Shown: piece by piece, positions 11,696-31,720 of the stretch
Layout of the letters: each line of letters begins with the position of its first letter
How positions within the stretch are numbered: the stretch's first letter is position 1
Origin: Escherichia phage vB_EcoD-Elw
Strand: one strand, 5' to 3'
Sequence record: OR621298
Length of the DNA stretch: 64,000 bases
Notes under the pieces: generated by a model
The model's input: the letters and a program-made list of their open reading frames with translations, nothing else
Database searches by the model: none
Told to the model about the DNA's origin: nothing
Translations under genes and position numbers: made by a program

Positions 11696-11767
11696 ATTAT
11701 TCTCCTAATGTGCCTCCCCCAGTAAAAGGTCTGAGGAGGCGTAGACCTATAAATTAATTAACGATCT

Positions 11768-12500
11768 TTATTGATCCTTTTTACTCTCATTAAGAGCAGC
11801 CCCCAACGCCTCAAGGATAGTATCATTTATGCTCCCAGGCCTAAGATTATTAAAGTGAGTAACATAGATGGGACTTTTAAAACCTTCAGCATTCGCAGGT
11901 GCTACGCTTCGCATATCAGATTCAAAAGCTTCTTGAGTATGTTTCAGCTGTACAGAAGGCCCATAATCTTCACCAACTCGATATGAGGAACTATTTTCTA
12001 TAGTGCCGCCGCATGGAACATTGTGCATTTCCGACGTTATTTTAGAATTAAATGCGATACCACTTTTGGTCCAGGAACCTCCAACAGTCACAGGAGTACT
12101 AGGACGATTCACCTCAGTCTTCACGAGTTTATAACCAGCATCTATTAATGCGTTAATAAGGTTATCAGCTGGAATCCGAGCCTTGCCAAAGATCTTACGA
12201 GCTTCTTTTAATTTATGCTCAAGATCTTTACAGGCTTTAATATCAGTGTACGAGTTTATAACCAGCATCTATTAATGCGTTAATAAGGTTATCAGCTGGA
12301 ATCCGAGCCTTGCCAAAGATCTTACGAGCTTCTTTTAATTTATGCTCAAGATCTTTACAGGCTTTAATATCAGTGTGCGCAAAGGTTAATTTCATAGATT
12401 TGAACTGTACAGTGGCAGTTAAGTCTTTAAAATCATAATCCCATGTATTTAATTCATGGTCTGGTACTACTTGAACAGGTTGTTGTGCATATAAAGTCAT
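11768..12500 (-). pseudogene. gene disrupted by an internal 127-bp tandem duplication (track ORFs 12243..12500 and 11768..12268)
   Basis: The two ORFs share an identical 42-aa stretch (TDIKACKDLEHKLKEARKIF...); 127 is not a multiple of 3, so the duplication shifts the frame. Confidence 0.5.
12123..12376. repeat. perfect 127-bp tandem direct duplication (12123-12249 and 12250-12376)
   Basis: Two adjacent identical copies read directly from the sequence. Confidence 0.85.
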
Positions 12501-12685
12501 TACTTATTCTCCAATTTGTCTAACAGCTTATGAGCTGCTAGGTTATATTGTTTAAGTTCACGGTTAAGGATTTGGTTCTCACACTTTAACTCTAAATTCT
12601 TATTATTAAGAATATTACAGATTAGTAGAAGTGCTAGTATAACTAGCAGGGAACCTACTAGCATTAAAAGAAAAAGAGTTTCCAT
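12500..12685 (-). CDS. small membrane protein
   Basis: 61-aa ORF, N-terminal TM then charged tail. Confidence 0.45.
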   Translation of the reverse strand: METLFLLMLVGSLLVILALLLICNILNNKNLELKCENQILNRELKQYNLAAHKLLDKLENK

Positions 12686-12909
12686 TATTTAATTCCCATG
12701 TAACGTTTGAGATACGTGATGAAGTCTTCTGTTGTATGTTCTACGCTACCCTGAACCACAAACAACTTTAAAGCCTCACGCTGTAATTTAAGAGCAGCTA
12801 ACTCACCACGTATATCTTCCGCTAGTTCTCTAGCTCTGCGCATAATAGCAAATGATACAAATGTTACAATAAATAACATAACTGCTAAAATAATTACTAT
12901 GATCTCCAT
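12685..12909 (-). CDS. small membrane protein
   Basis: 74-aa ORF, N-terminal TM then helical charged segment. Confidence 0.45.
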   Translation of the reverse strand: MEIIVIILAVMLFIVTFVSFAIMRRARELAEDIRGELAALKLQREALKLFVVQGSVEHTTEDFITYLKRYMGIK

Positions 12910-28504: not shown

Positions 28505-28578
28505 TTGGTTTCCCTCTCATTAATTTATATAGATAGTATAACAAGAAATAAGAGAGAAGGCAAATGAATTTTTAAATT

Positions 28579-29302: not shown

Positions 29303-29486
29303 TCTTAATACTTTTTGGATCTTCTAAACGTTTGCCTTCATGATCTACTCGAATAACTCCGCACCCTTCGCAAACCACAACTACACCATAACCTTCTTTG
29401 ACCTCAGCTTCTGTAATCAAACCAGAAAGATCACCAGTATCTCTGCCCCACATATCAATGGAGCATTGTTTGCAGAAATCAGCCAT
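29280..29486 (-). CDS. small zinc-ribbon-like protein
   Basis: 68-aa ORF with CKQC and CEGCG pairs; 3' end overlaps tRNA-Gln by ~23 nt. Confidence 0.4.
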   Translation of the reverse strand: MADFCKQCSIDMWGRDTGDLSGLITEAEVKEGYGVVVVCEGCGVIRVDHEGKRLEDPKSIKKKVSQVG

Positions 29487-29511
29487 ATTTTATTTCCTAT
29501 TTAAGTTAATT

Positions 29512-29588
29512 TGGGGTGGCTAGTGGAATTCGAATCCACATAGGCCTGATTCACAATCAGGATCATTAACCAATTATGATATAGCCAC
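29512..29588 (-). tRNA. tRNA-His (GTG)
   Basis: Hand fold: acceptor GTGGCTA/TAGCCAC, anticodon arm CCTGA-TTGTGAA-TCAGG, T-loop TTCGAAT, CCA encoded. Confidence 0.65.
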
Positions 29589-30088
29589 AATTGAAAACTC
29601 GCAGGGTTAGCGAAACCTTCCTCAATTAGCATGTTCTAGAATACTAATCAAGTTATCTCCTATTGCACGCAGCTCAAGACGAGTACGAATTTTCAATTGT
29701 GGTGGCTCTCAGAAACTCTTCTACTCTAGCCTTAGCAGCTTACTCCCGAACGCATGTCGGGGAAGTCTTACTAAGAGCTTCGAATAGCACCGTTACACTT
29801 TGAGCCATAGATGTATCAAGAAGCAGAAGGACTTGAACCTTCACGAGATAGACCATTTATCTCAGCCGCTTTATGAGGTATGTTGCAGGGAGTGGATGTT
29901 CCCTATAAACCTTTTAGGCAGCCCCGTCTACCGATTCCAGCATACTTCAAGAATTTTTATAAACCAGCAGAAGCCTCATTTAAAGCATCAACAATAGCTT
30001 CACGTTGGGTCATTCCATACCCAGTGGAATCTAGGTGTGGCAAATAAGCCATCCATCCCTTATCTGTTTCATGAAGGCATGCTTTAAA

Positions 30089-30107
30089 TTTTTTTTTTTT
30101 TTTTTTT
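30089..30107. repeat. 19-nt poly(T) homopolymer (poly(A) on the coding minus strand)
   Basis: 19 consecutive T read directly; lies inside a short minus-strand ORF that starts at 30143 behind RBS AAGGAA. Confidence 0.9.
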
Positions 30108-30163
30108 ACCGTCCTTCATTGTTACAGTAACTGTTTTGCTCATAATGATTCCTTATAGTTAAT

Positions 30164-30253
30164 TGGAGGAAGGTAATGGAGTCGAACCATCACCGTATCA
30201 CTACAGCGGGCTAGTTTTCAAGACTAGTTGCGTACCACTACGCCCTACCTTCC
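30164..30253 (-). tRNA. tRNA-Ser (TGA), class II
   Basis: 90 nt; acceptor GGAAGGT/ACCTTCC, anticodon arm CTAGT-CTTGAAA-ACTAG, long variable arm, CCA encoded. Confidence 0.6.
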
Positions 30254-30260
30254 ATTTGTT

Positions 30261-30351
30261 TGGCGGAAGAGGAGAGATTTGAACTCTCAAGCCGTTTTAC
30301 CAGTCAGCCACTTTCCAAGCGGTTTTCGTCGCCAATTCGATTTGCTCTTCC
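30261..30351 (-). tRNA. tRNA-Ser (GGA), class II
   Basis: 91 nt; acceptor GGAAGAG/CTCTTCC, T-arm GAGAG-TTCAAAT-CTCTC, long variable arm; anticodon assignment tentative. Confidence 0.45.
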
Positions 30352-30384
30352 AATAATAAGATGATGCCTCTATCACACCAGGCA

Positions 30385-30460
30385 GTTACGCCTCGCTGGG
30401 ATTCGAACCCATTAAAACAGCTCAACCGAGATAGTAGATTTAATTTACTCTGACCATCAA
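30385..30460 (-). other. tRNA-like element with canonical T-arm but no foldable acceptor stem
   Basis: GGGTTCGAATCCC T-arm motif present; no 7-bp acceptor pairing or CCA found by hand. Confidence 0.3.
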
Positions 30461-30463
30461 ATT

Positions 30464-30540
30464 TGGTGCGTGACAAGGGATTCGAACCCTCAAAACCCGA
30501 CTTCTAAGGACGGTATGTATGCCAATTCCATCAATCACGC
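30464..30540 (-). tRNA. tRNA with anticodon TAG (Leu-type anticodon) in a short 77-nt class-I-like body
   Basis: Acceptor GCGTGAT/GTCACGC (one G-U), T-arm GAGGG-TTCGAAT-CCCTT, anticodon loop CTTAGAA, discriminator A, CCA encoded. Confidence 0.45.
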
Positions 30541-30545
30541 GTATT

Positions 30546-30620
30546 TGGTGGACAAAGAGGGACTCGAACCCTCCCTACCAGATTGCAAATCTGGTGTGCT
30601 CCCGCTGACACTATTCGCCC
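30546..30620 (-). tRNA. tRNA-Ala (TGC)
   Basis: Anticodon arm CCAGA-TTTGCAA-TCTGG, T-arm GAGGG-TTCGAGT-CCCTC, acceptor with two G-U pairs, CCA encoded. Confidence 0.6.
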
Positions 30621-30997
30621 AAATTTATTAATCCAGCATGTACTTCTCTATGGCAGTTAGAGCATAATAGTACGCACTTTTTAAGTTCTGCTATTACTAC
30701 TTCTCTGTTTCTACGAGAAGTTCTAAACCTTGCAATGGAGTATTCCTTTTCTTCTGGATTAGTATGGTGGAAATCTAAGGCTTGTTTACACCTATTATAT
30801 CCACAAATACTACATTCTAATACAGGAAATACTTCTTTAATTAATTCTTCATGTCCAGCTACTCGTTCAGCTTTTTCACATGCTTTACATGTTGGCTTCC
30901 ACTTCTTTGTGCCATTAGGAGTAAATCCATTCGAATAAAAATATTCGGTTGTTAACGGATATTCATTCCCACAGGCTCTACATGTTTTTGTACACAC
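30611..30997 (-). CDS. HNH homing endonuclease
   Basis: 128-aa ORF; N-terminal Cys pairs and C-terminal HNH signature (DFHHTNP...CSNCH); 3' end overlaps tRNA-Ala by 10 nt. Confidence 0.7.
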   Translation of the reverse strand: MCTKTCRACGNEYPLTTEYFYSNGFTPNGTKKWKPTCKACEKAERVAGHEELIKEVFPVLECSICGYNRCKQALDFHHTNPEEKEYSIARFRTSRRNREVVIAELKKCVLLCSNCHREVHAGLINLGE

Positions 30998-31357
30998 TGC
31001 GTTAACCCCTGTAAGTTTACTAAGGCTATTAGCTCGGCGTAACTACAGCACCTTCGCTTCGAGCGGAAGGAACTGCGTCATCTCGCAAACCCGATACACT
31101 ATTCAGTTGCCGCTGAATCTAGTGGACTAATCTAGAACTTCTCCCGAATTGTAGGGATCGTGCTTTTTGGCAGCCAGTCCTAGGTCGAGCTAATACCTTA
31201 GTGAACTAAATTGATGGATACCAGACTAATTTTGCTACGACGTTTATCCTGAGGATCTCTTTTTCGGTAGCTCTGCTAGTGTAGACGTCATACACCTGGT
31301 ATCTAGGCAGCTATTTTCGCATCAATTTATATAAATATTATAACAAGAAATTAAGCA

Positions 31358-31720
31358 TTAAGCAAGTACATTTTTAGCGATTTCCTGTAGTTCCTTTACA
31401 TCACGAACGTAAAGGTAATCAGAGCTTCCAGAGTGCATACTTTGCATAACCACACCTTCATCTGGTGCATTATCCTTCAAGGTAATTCCTAGCCAGAACT
31501 CGGCAAAACTAGGTGTTATCTCACCTTGACTTGCCTTGAATACATCATATTCTGTAAGTTCTTGACCAGTAGATAATCCCAAATAGACAGAACTAAGATC
31601 AATCTCTTTATGAGACTCATAAAATTCCGATAGATCTTTTTCCATATCCCAGCCATGCTGCAATGCGAACTCCATTGTCACATGACCGAAATAACCTTGA
31701 ATCTTGTTTGATAATTGCAT
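31358..31720 (-). CDS. hypothetical protein
   Basis: Track ORF 31358..31726 starts at TTG; trimmed to ATG with RBS AAGGA. Confidence 0.45.
   Translation of the reverse strand: MQLSNKIQGYFGHVTMEFALQHGWDMEKDLSEFYESHKEIDLSSVYLGLSTGQELTEYDVFKASQGEITPSFAEFWLGITLKDNAPDEGVVMQSMHSGSSDYLYVRDVKELQEIAKNVLA

What the first reader, a model, noticed from the sequence alone, without database searches (positions are those of the whole stretch)
30089..30160. 19-nt poly(A) tract inside a short minus-strand ORF next to tRNA-Ser: possible slippage site
A minus-strand ORF starts at 30143 (RBS AAGGAA) and reads MSKTVTVTMKDG, then six Lys codons from the 19-A run, then stops at once. Just past the run, a different frame continues as a protein-like sequence (FKACLHETDKGWMAYLPHLDSTGYGMTQREAIVDALNEASAGL). 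Homopolymers of 9 or more A/T are classic transcriptional or ribosomal slippage sites, so the tract could fuse the frames or act as a length-variable switch. It could also be a sequencing or assembly homopolymer error.
Basis: seen in the sequence. Interest (0 to 1): 0.6.

Follow-up and report, generated by a model that had tools for sequence, protein, structure and literature searches.

The report
Poly-A insertion breaking a small phage gene
The 19-A run is real, but it is a one-off 13-base insertion that splits a small conserved gene of a T5-like phage (every relative has six As and an intact gene), so it is a mutation or sequencing problem, not a programmed frameshift signal.

Summary
Observation confirmed: 19 As on the minus strand at 30089-30107. 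They lie 36 nt into an ORF with an RBS, just downstream of tRNA-Ser(UGA).

The window is a T5-like phage (Tequintavirus), probably Escherichia phage vB_EcoD-Elw.

- **Relatives:** every relative checked has A6 (Lys-Lys) and an intact ORF. This covers about 100 phage records, 5 IMG/VR contigs and 2 metagenome contigs. The closest are otherwise 100% identical across the gene.
- **Divergent homologues:** they have no homopolymer at this position (ACAGAG or TCAGAG).
- **The change here:** +13 A, which shifts the frame and gives MSKTVTVTMKDGKKKKKKI*.
- **Background:** the window has no other homopolymer of 7 or more, and no general frameshift problem.

So this is not a conserved programmed recoding site. 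Most likely it is a recent insertion specific to this isolate, in a dispensable region. Its exact length is uncertain and it would mutate readily. Host RNA polymerase slippage and ribosome sliding would still give some full-length protein, with 6-7 Lys in a surface loop.

A sequencing or assembly artefact cannot be excluded without the reads. The same assembly carries a 127-nt tandem duplication that looks like an artefact. Interest is low.

The parts
30089..30107 (-). A19 homopolymer (T19 on the plus strand). It equals the ancestral A6 (Lys13-Lys14 codons AAA AAA) plus 13 inserted A.
   Evidence: The alignment with phage 5, NBSal005, SP15, T5 and polluks shows a 13-nt gap in all relatives.
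29957..30143 (-). Frameshift-disrupted homologue of T5.063 / ORF trn 2.14 (phrog_16298). It is 174 nt (57 aa) in relatives and 187 nt here.
   Evidence: The best database match is 174/187, with every difference lying in the tract.
30084..30143 (-). Zero-frame ORF as written: MSKTVTVTMKDGKKKKKKI*, 19 aa.
29957..30088 (-). +1-frame continuation, FKACLHE...ASAGL*. This is residues 15-57 of the ancestral protein. It can be reached only by a -1 nt/+2 nt change in the tract or a +1/-2 ribosome shift. An internal ATG at 30052 would give a 31-aa fragment.
   Evidence: The 31-aa ORF is the one annotated in GenBank as WOZ54392.1.
30149..30154 (-). Ribosome-binding site AAGGAA, 5 nt upstream of the ATG.
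   Evidence: The homologous site is annotated as an RBS in AJ604531.
30164..30253 (-). tRNA-Ser(UGA), immediately upstream in the same transcription direction.
29807..29951 (-). tRNA-like stable 'RNA1' immediately downstream. Coordinates are transferred from the AJ604531/T5 annotation.
   Evidence: for the annotation of the homologous DNA. The coordinates are inferred from the alignment offset.
31316..31380 (-). Nearest upstream member of a 17-copy promoter-like repeat. On the minus strand it reads TTGCTT-17 nt-TATAAT (T5 early-promoter type). It is the likely source of the transcript that crosses the tract.
   Evidence: family D1. That it is active is an inference.

Best explanation
The tract is a derived 13-A expansion, specific to this isolate, of the AAA-AAA (Lys13-Lys14) codons of the T5.063 homologue. 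That gene is a small conserved accessory gene in the tRNA cluster of T5-like phages.

**Shown.**
- The insertion shifts the frame, so the DNA as written encodes a 19-aa stub.
- It is not a conserved or programmed recoding signal.

**Inferred, if the DNA is as written.**
- *Replication:* a 19-nt run is unstable when copied, so a lysate should hold a mix of lengths. The 18- and 21-A variants would be in frame.
- *Transcription:* T5-like phages are transcribed by host RNA polymerase (established knowledge). It will slip on T19 in the template, so roughly a third of mRNAs should be back in frame.
- *Translation:* ribosomes pause and slide on iterated AAA codons.
- *Net effect:* a strong knock-down of the gene. 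Residual full-length protein would carry 6-7 Lys instead of 2 in the beta1-beta2 hairpin loop, which is a variable surface position and probably tolerates the change.
- *Fitness cost:* the gene lies in the dispensable, deletion-prone 'del-1' tRNA region, so losing or weakening it is affordable.
For: **Ancestral state A6.** The gene is otherwise 100% identical in nucleotides to phage 5, NBSal005 and SP15.

**Breadth of the comparison.**
- In a megablast of the 187-nt gene against 50,697 phage records, 99 records match. The best is 174/187, and all 25 listed records span 174 nt, so none carries a longer tract.
- By tblastn, all 108 matching records cover at least 80% of the 57-aa protein.
- All 5 IMG/VR contigs and both metagenome contigs have A6.
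- The 50 members of the three 90% protein clusters are 57 aa, apart from the window's own 31-aa fragment, the polluks 36-aa fragment and one unrelated 316-aa member. No K3-K7 variant is on record.

**No homopolymer in the wider family.** Divergent homologues have ACAGAG or TCAGAG here. Residues 13-14 vary (KK, TK, SV, ET, TE, SE) between invariant G12 and F15.

**Position in the protein.** The AF2 model (pLDDT 89.6) places residues 9-13 in the loop between beta1 (2-8) and beta2 (14-22).

**The assembly is otherwise sound.**
- 76 of the 78 FFH_1 ORFs of at least 70 aa that have a match in the window align as one full-length HSP.
- There is no other run of 7 or more.
- There is no pattern of homopolymer indels against FFH_1.

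**The gene can be lost in nature.** Phage polluks has an independent 11-nt tandem duplication that truncates it.

**The region is dispensable.** PMC12483538 describes the tRNA-rich del-1 region as a hotspot of deletions of 200-15,000 bp in viable T5 escapers.

**Slippage thresholds.** PMC6260861, PMC5009743, PMC4256274 and PMC4363877.

**The frameshift is in a public deposit.** The 31-aa downstream ORF is annotated as WOZ54392.1 in Escherichia phage vB_EcoD-Elw.
Against: - A jump from A6 to A19 is not a typical single slippage event, and no relative shows an intermediate length (A7-A18).
- T5-like genomes almost never carry runs of 7 or more, which suggests such runs are purged quickly.
- The same assembly holds a perfect 127-nt tandem duplication at 12123-12376. 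No relative has it, and it looks like an untrimmed assembler k-mer overlap. So the record was not fully curated.
- No reads are available, so neither the tract's existence in the DNA nor its exact length (18, 19, 20 or 21) can be verified. If the true modal length were 18 or 21, the gene would be in frame.
Confidence: 0.55

Rival explanations
1. Sequencing, assembly or record artefact. The phage DNA really has A6 (or a much shorter run) and an intact 57-aa gene, and the extra As were introduced during library preparation, assembly, polishing or editing.
For: - The tract is unique among about 100 relatives.
- The flanks are identical to relatives.
- The genome lineage otherwise lacks runs of 7 or more.
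- A second anomaly unique to this genome is present: a perfect 127-nt tandem duplication that splits another ORF. 127 is the largest default SPAdes k (own knowledge), so the record kept at least one probable assembly artefact.
Against: - No common platform error turns A6 into A19. Typical homopolymer errors are 1-2 nt, and nanopore shortens runs (own knowledge).
- If the assembly did use k=127, as the 127-nt duplication suggests, the graph can contain flank-A19-flank only if reads span it.
- The rest of the window shows no homopolymer or frameshift errors.
Confidence: 0.33
2. A selected, heritable on/off or dosage switch. This would be a contingency locus or programmed slippage site that the phage keeps in order to vary expression of the T5.063 homologue, for example to escape a host defence that senses the protein.
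For: - The tract sits early in an ORF, as in phase-variable genes.
- Its length is well above the slippage thresholds (PMC6260861, PMC4256274).
- A neighbouring small gene of the same region, T5.058, triggers a defence system, and escapers down-regulate it (PMC12483538).
- The same gene is independently broken in polluks.
Against: - There is no conservation and no length polymorphism of the run in any relative.
- The zero-frame product is a 19-aa stub with no sign of a function.
- Only a single genome carries the tract.
- The function of the gene is unknown.
Confidence: 0.07
3. Programmed ribosomal frameshifting of the classical kind, with a slippery heptamer plus a stimulator giving a fixed ratio of two functional products.
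For: A_AAA_AAA is a classic slippery sequence, and ribosomes are known to shift on it (PMC5009743).
Against: - The conserved product needs a +1/-2 shift, not -1.
- A -1 shift gives KKKKKKNLKHAFMKQIRDGWLICHT*, which matches nothing conserved.
- Relatives encode a single ORF with no overlap.
- The run itself is not conserved.
Confidence: 0.02

Closest known systems
T5.063 (AAS77109.1) / 'ORF trn 2.14' of phages 5 and BF23 / phrog_16298
   Same: It is the same gene. The RBS and the position between tRNA-Ser(UGA) and stable RNA1 are the same. The sequence is 100% identical in nucleotides to the phage 5 copy outside the tract.
   Different: Thirteen extra As in the Lys13-Lys14 codons break the frame. 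All other copies are 57-58 aa and intact, except in polluks.
Genes interrupted by a poly(A) run and rescued by non-programmed or adopted transcriptional slippage: Citrobacter rodentium tssM1 (A11), and Buchnera/Blochmannia poly(A) frameshifted genes
   Same: A long A run lies at the junction of two frames of one gene in an enterobacterial transcription system. Slippage by the host RNA polymerase would restore the frame in a fraction of mRNAs (PMC4256274, PMC5009743).
   Different: In tssM1 both products are needed and the site recurs in Yersinia. Here nothing is conserved, the short product is a 19-aa stub, and slippage has not been measured.
Phase-variable contingency loci (homopolymeric tracts within ORFs of bacterial surface or restriction genes)
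   Same: A long mononucleotide run near the 5' end of an ORF, whose length sets the frame.
   Different: No length polymorphism is seen among relatives and there is no known function that benefits from switching. This is a phage accessory gene in a single isolate.
Ribosome sliding on iterated AAA lysine codons (Koutmou et al. 2015, PMC4363877)
   Same: Six consecutive AAA codons followed by out-of-frame stops, which is the configuration shown to cause pausing, sliding and premature termination in E. coli.
   Different: That work used engineered reporters. This is a natural or deposited phage sequence, and nothing has been tested.
dsRBD-like / HicB-N-terminal-like small beta-beta-beta-alpha proteins
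   Different: - There is no Pfam match above threshold.
- The only hit is a sub-threshold LSM match, E 0.016.
- Foldseek against the PDB finds nothing significant.
- The first helix of a dsRBD is missing.
- This is a resemblance only.

Membership tests
T5.063 / phrog_16298 small protein of T5-like phages | Sequence match to the family profile over its full length | tested here: met
   The restored 57-aa sequence matches phrog_16298 at E 2e-41 over 1-57/57. It is 100% identical to the phage 5 protein.
T5.063 / phrog_16298 small protein of T5-like phages | Conserved position: downstream of tRNA-Ser(UGA), upstream of stable RNA1 and tRNA-His | tested here: met
T5.063 / phrog_16298 small protein of T5-like phages | Intact single ORF of 57-58 codons | tested here: not met
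   The frame is broken by +13 A. The products are 19 aa, or 31 aa from the internal ATG.
Programmed transcriptional slippage site | Homopolymeric A/T run long enough for the polymerase to slip | tested here: met
   A19, against thresholds of 7-11 (PMC6260861, PMC5009743, PMC4256274).
Programmed transcriptional slippage site | The run is conserved among homologues | tested here: not met
   Close relatives have A6, and distant ones have ACAGAG or TCAGAG.
Programmed transcriptional slippage site | Both the unshifted and the shifted products are meaningful, with conserved two-ORF architecture | tested here: not met
   Relatives have one ORF, and the unshifted product here is a 19-aa stub.
Programmed transcriptional slippage site | mRNA length heterogeneity at the run, with homogeneous DNA | not testable with these tools
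   This needs RNA and DNA amplicon sequencing.
Programmed -1 ribosomal frameshift cassette | A -1 shift on an X_XXY_YYZ heptamer leads into the conserved downstream frame | tested here: not met
   The conserved frame is +1/-2 relative to the start. The -1 frame ends after 25 codons in unrelated sequence.
Phase-variable contingency locus | Tract-length polymorphism between closely related genomes | tested here: not met
   All relatives are A6, and no Lys-expanded protein is on record.
Phase-variable contingency locus | Tract-length heterogeneity within a population, with reversible on/off switching | not testable with these tools
   This needs reads or plaque-level sequencing.
HicB / dsRBD-like / LSm (names attached to this protein in databases) | Significant match to the family's sequence profile | tested here: not met
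   Pfam gives only LSM at E 0.016, 15.4 bits against a cut-off of 23.4, and no HicB model.
HicB / dsRBD-like / LSm (names attached to this protein in databases) | Fold match | tested here: inconclusive

The most novel reading that the evidence does not exclude
The tract is real and is kept by selection as a hypermutable switch. By flipping among 18, 19, 20 and 21 As, and by leaking through RNA polymerase slippage, the phage population would hedge between expressing and silencing a small dsRBD/HicB-like accessory protein of the tRNA region. One possible reason is that a host defence system senses this protein, as DRT9 senses the neighbouring T5.058. That would be phase variation in a virulent phage gene.

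An even more speculative variant is that the extra As are a template-switch scar from poly-dA made by a DRT9-type defence. I found no evidence for this.
Probability: 0.06. Interest if true: 0.55.

Novelty: new member of a known kind. Interest (0 to 1): 0.22.

Why it matters
Mostly as a caution. A striking homopolymer between two 'protein-like' frames turned out to be a private lesion in a known small gene, not a recoding device. The comparison that settled this took a handful of calls.

If the tract is real, the isolate is a natural knock-down allele of T5.063, an uncharacterised gene conserved in the T5 tRNA cluster. It would then serve two uses: testing what that gene does, and measuring host-polymerase slippage and ribosome sliding on a 19-A run during phage infection.

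The sharp absence of runs of 7 or more in T5-like genomes coincides with the published slippage threshold of E. coli RNA polymerase. That is arguably the more interesting biological hint.

Tried and rejected
- **Source contig.** An exact look-up of the 31-aa ORF with the look-up of encoding contigs found nothing. The cluster look-up later found it as WOZ54392.1 of phage vB_EcoD-Elw. That genome is not in the searchable phage collection: no match of 99% or better over 11700-12700.
- **Other long tracts at this site.** Variable-gap pattern scans of IMG/VR, metagenomes and GTDB genomes gave 5, 2 and 0 hits, all A6.
- **Lys-expanded in-frame variants.** K3-K7 versions are not among 15 billion proteins.
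- **T19 as a terminator or promoter element on the plus strand.** There is no hairpin before the run. One weak plus-strand promoter-like match (30119-30146) lies just past it, but matches in the region are no commoner than in shuffles, so this was rejected.
- **Rfam.** Only tRNAs were found in 29400-30700.
- **General homopolymer-error assembly.** Rejected.
- **Function of the protein.**
  - Pfam gave nothing above threshold.
  - Only 3 clusters at 90% identity and 2 true representatives at 50% exist.
  - The fold search was suggestive only.
  - The afdb50 library was unavailable.
- **Literature.** Searches for 'T5.063' and for the phage name found nothing.

Full report
**What is there.** On the minus strand the window reads ...ATGAGCAAAACAGTTACTGTAACAATGAAGGACGGT-A19-TTTAAAGCATGCC....
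- The A run occupies 30089-30107. The ATG is at 30143-30141 and AAGGAA at 30154-30149.
- The zero frame gives MSKTVTVTMKDGKKKKKKI*.
- The +1 frame is open across the run and continues as FKACLHETDKGWMAYLPHLDSTGYGMTQREAIVDALNEASAGL* to 29957. It has no start codon before the ATG at 30052.
- The third frame gives K6-NLKHAFMKQIRDGWLICHT*.
- tRNA-Ser(UGA) is at 30164-30253. It is one of 24 tRNA genes, all on the minus strand.

**Is it more than chance?** Yes.
- Every 12-A word in the window lies in this run, against 0.21 expected.
- The window has 44 runs of six and none of 7 to 18.
- A first-order Markov model predicts about 35 runs of 7 or more and never produced a run above 13.

**What the locus is.** The window is a T5-like phage (Demerecviridae, Tequintavirus/Epseptimavirus neighbourhood).
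- A 601-nt query around the tract hits 459 phage records, and 20 kb hits T5-like genomes at 94-97.5%.
- In the curated records of phage 5, BF23 and T5, the homologous DNA is annotated as tRNA-Ser2, tRNA-Ser1, an RBS, a 174-nt CDS, then the stable RNAs RNA1, RNAI and RNAIII, then tRNA-His. The CDS is called 'ORF trn 2.14' in phage 5 and T5.063 (AAS77109.1) in T5.
- The CDS translates to MSKTVTVTMKDGKKFKACLHETDKGWMAYLPHLDSTGYGMTQREAIVDALNEASAGL.
It belongs to phrog_16298 (E 2e-41), function unknown.

**The key comparison.** Aligned with phage 5, NBSal005 and SP15, the window is identical at every position of the gene. The one difference is that the relatives have six As where the window has nineteen.
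- T5 and polluks also have A6.
- The 187-nt gene matches 99 phage records. The best possible score is reached by records that are 174/187, and all 25 listed records span 174 nt. No database genome therefore has a longer run.
- By tblastn, all 108 matching records cover at least 80% of the protein.
- A pattern allowing 0-30 extra bases after A6 found 5 IMG/VR and 2 metagenome contigs, all with zero extra bases, and nothing in GTDB genomes.
- The members of the three 90% protein clusters are 57 aa, apart from two fragments and one unrelated 316-aa member. Lys3- to Lys7-expanded versions are absent from about 15 billion proteins.
- More distant homologues (about 47-61% identity) have Thr-Glu, Ser-Glu, Ser-Val or Glu-Thr at this position, encoded for example by ACAGAG or TCAGAG. 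The family therefore has no homopolymer here.

The A19 is a private +13 insertion (13 = 4x3+1) that shifts the frame.

**Where it falls in the protein.** An AlphaFold2 model of the intact protein is confident (mean pLDDT 89.6).
- It has strands at 2-8, 14-22, 25-30 and 35-39, and a helix at 42-55.
- The Lys-Lys codons lie in the beta1-beta2 hairpin turn, between invariant Gly12 and Phe15.
- An in-frame tract of 18 or 21 As would only lengthen a variable surface loop by 4-5 lysines. This is an inference.

**Is it transcribed?**
- The ORF sits 20 nt after a tRNA and 6 nt before a stable RNA, on the strand that carries all the tRNA genes.
- The nearest upstream member of a 17-copy repeat (31316-31380) reads TTGCTT-17-TATAAT on the minus strand, the T5 early-promoter type.
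- No terminator-like site lies between this repeat and the tract on the minus strand.

Transcription through the tract is therefore likely, but it is inferred.

**How it would behave.** T5-like phages use the host RNA polymerase (established knowledge).
- E. coli RNA polymerase needs at least 7 T, and more for A, to slip (PMC6260861).
- Runs of 9 give mRNAs with up to 6 extra nucleotides (PMC5009743).
- An A11 run in Citrobacter tssM1 restores a broken frame by slippage (PMC4256274).
- E. coli ribosomes pause and slide on iterated AAA codons, then terminate at out-of-frame stops (PMC4363877).

A19 exceeds all of these thresholds. The gene as written would not be a clean null. A minority of transcripts (n-1, n+2 and so on) and of ribosomes would yield full-length protein with a poly-Lys loop, alongside the 19-aa and 43-aa out-of-frame products. 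At the DNA level a 19-nt run should also be unstable, so the '19' is at best the mode of a distribution.

**Real mutation or artefact?**

Points for a real tract:
- The assembly is otherwise clean. Of the FFH_1 ORFs of at least 70 aa, 78 have a match in the window and 76 of those align as a single full-length HSP.
- There are no homopolymer-type indels against FFH_1, and no other run of 7 or more.
- A +13 error is not characteristic of any platform (own knowledge).
- The frameshift is in a GenBank deposit. The 31-aa ORF is WOZ54392.1 of Escherichia phage vB_EcoD-Elw, 118,119 bp.
- The same gene is independently broken by an 11-nt tandem duplication in phage polluks.
- The gene lies in the del-1 tRNA region, where viable T5 escapers carry deletions of 0.2-15 kb (PMC12483538).

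Points for an artefact:
- The tract is unique, with no intermediates.
- The lineage purges long runs.
- The same assembly holds a perfect 127-nt tandem duplication at 12123-12249/12250-12376 that splits another ORF and is absent from all relatives. 127 is the largest default SPAdes k, so this looks like an untrimmed contig-end overlap left in after the genome was rotated. It shows the record was not fully curated.
- The same observation also cuts the other way. It implies a short-read de Bruijn assembly, in which an A19 path requires reads that span it.

I put a real tract of uncertain exact length at about 0.55-0.6 and an artefact at about 0.33.

**Comparison with known systems.** It works like the non-programmed, 'rescuable' poly(A) frameshifts of Buchnera/Blochmannia and of Citrobacter tssM1, and it superficially resembles a contingency locus.
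- It fails the defining tests of a programmed slippage site: the run is not conserved and there is no two-product architecture.
- It fails the test for a -1 PRF cassette, because the required shift is to the wrong frame.
- It fails the test for a phase-variable locus, because relatives show no length polymorphism. Within-population heterogeneity cannot be tested here.
- It is a member, in broken form, of the T5.063/phrog_16298 family.

**Speculation recorded but unsupported.** Defence system DRT9 makes long poly-dA in T5-infected cells and is triggered by T5.058, a few genes away (PMC12483538). A template-switch scar from such poly-dA could in principle expand an A run. Nothing here tests that.

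**Verdict.** The 'programmed slippage site' reading is not supported. What is there is a private 13-A insertion, or an artefact, that disrupts a known small conserved gene. Slippage is an expected side-effect, not a design. Interest is low.

Noticed in passing
window 12123-12376: A perfect 127-nt tandem duplication (12123-12249 = 12250-12376, 100% identical). It splits a gene that is a single 206-aa ORF in FFH_1 into 85-aa and 166-aa ORFs. Every relative has one copy. 127 is the largest default SPAdes k-mer, so this looks like an untrimmed contig-end overlap left inside the genome after rotation.
   Followed up: partly
whole window; also L009 (FFH_1, 48.8 kb), L006-L008: T5-like genomes show a sharp homopolymer cut-off. 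The window has 256 runs of 5, 44 of 6 and none of 7 or more apart from the A19. FFH_1 has 186, 34 and 1. A Markov-1 model expects about 35 runs of 7 or more. The cut-off matches the published minimum (7 T) for slippage by E. coli RNA polymerase (PMC6260861), which these phages depend on.
   Followed up: partly
L010 (Salmonella phage polluks NC_102110.1) 488-509: The same gene is independently disrupted in polluks by an 11-nt tandem duplication (GCCCCACCTAG x2). It is annotated there as a 36-aa protein, and its A tract is the normal A6.
   Followed up: yes
window, 17 sites from 16230 to 54172 (e.g. 28514-28578, 31316-31380): A dispersed 65-nt repeat family. On the minus strand it reads as a near-consensus promoter (TTGCTT/TTGCTA, 17 nt, TATAAT) with an A/T-rich upstream part, so these are presumably the T5-type early promoters. 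The simple sigma-70 scan misses them because the -35 hexamer matches only 3 of 6 positions.
   Followed up: no
window about 30261-30351 (-): The T5 and phage 5 records annotate a second tRNA-Ser (GGA) here. ARAGORN calls it neither in the window nor in the phage 5 locus, and Rfam lists no hit there either. It may be an atypical tRNA.
   Followed up: partly
window 30611-30997 (-): A Cys-rich 128-aa ORF (CxxC ... CSNCHREVH, HNH-like by eye) overlaps the 5' end of tRNA-Ala by 10 nt. It has no Pfam hit at E <= 0.01. In phage 5 this position holds stable RNA 2H and promoter P13b instead. It is probably a homing-endonuclease insertion.
   Followed up: no
protein clusters: Public names for this 57-aa protein disagree: 'LSm family protein' (assigned to Enterococcus faecalis and E. 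coli records, probably phage contamination), 'HicB family protein' (the 31-aa fragment of vB_EcoD-Elw) and 'hypothetical protein'. The 90% cluster also contains an unrelated 316-aa carbamate kinase.
   Followed up: no
window as a whole: The exact 31-aa ORF at 29957-30052 is GenBank WOZ54392.1 from Escherichia phage vB_EcoD-Elw (118,119 bp). This is therefore the probable source of the window. That genome is not in the searchable phage collection.
   Followed up: partly
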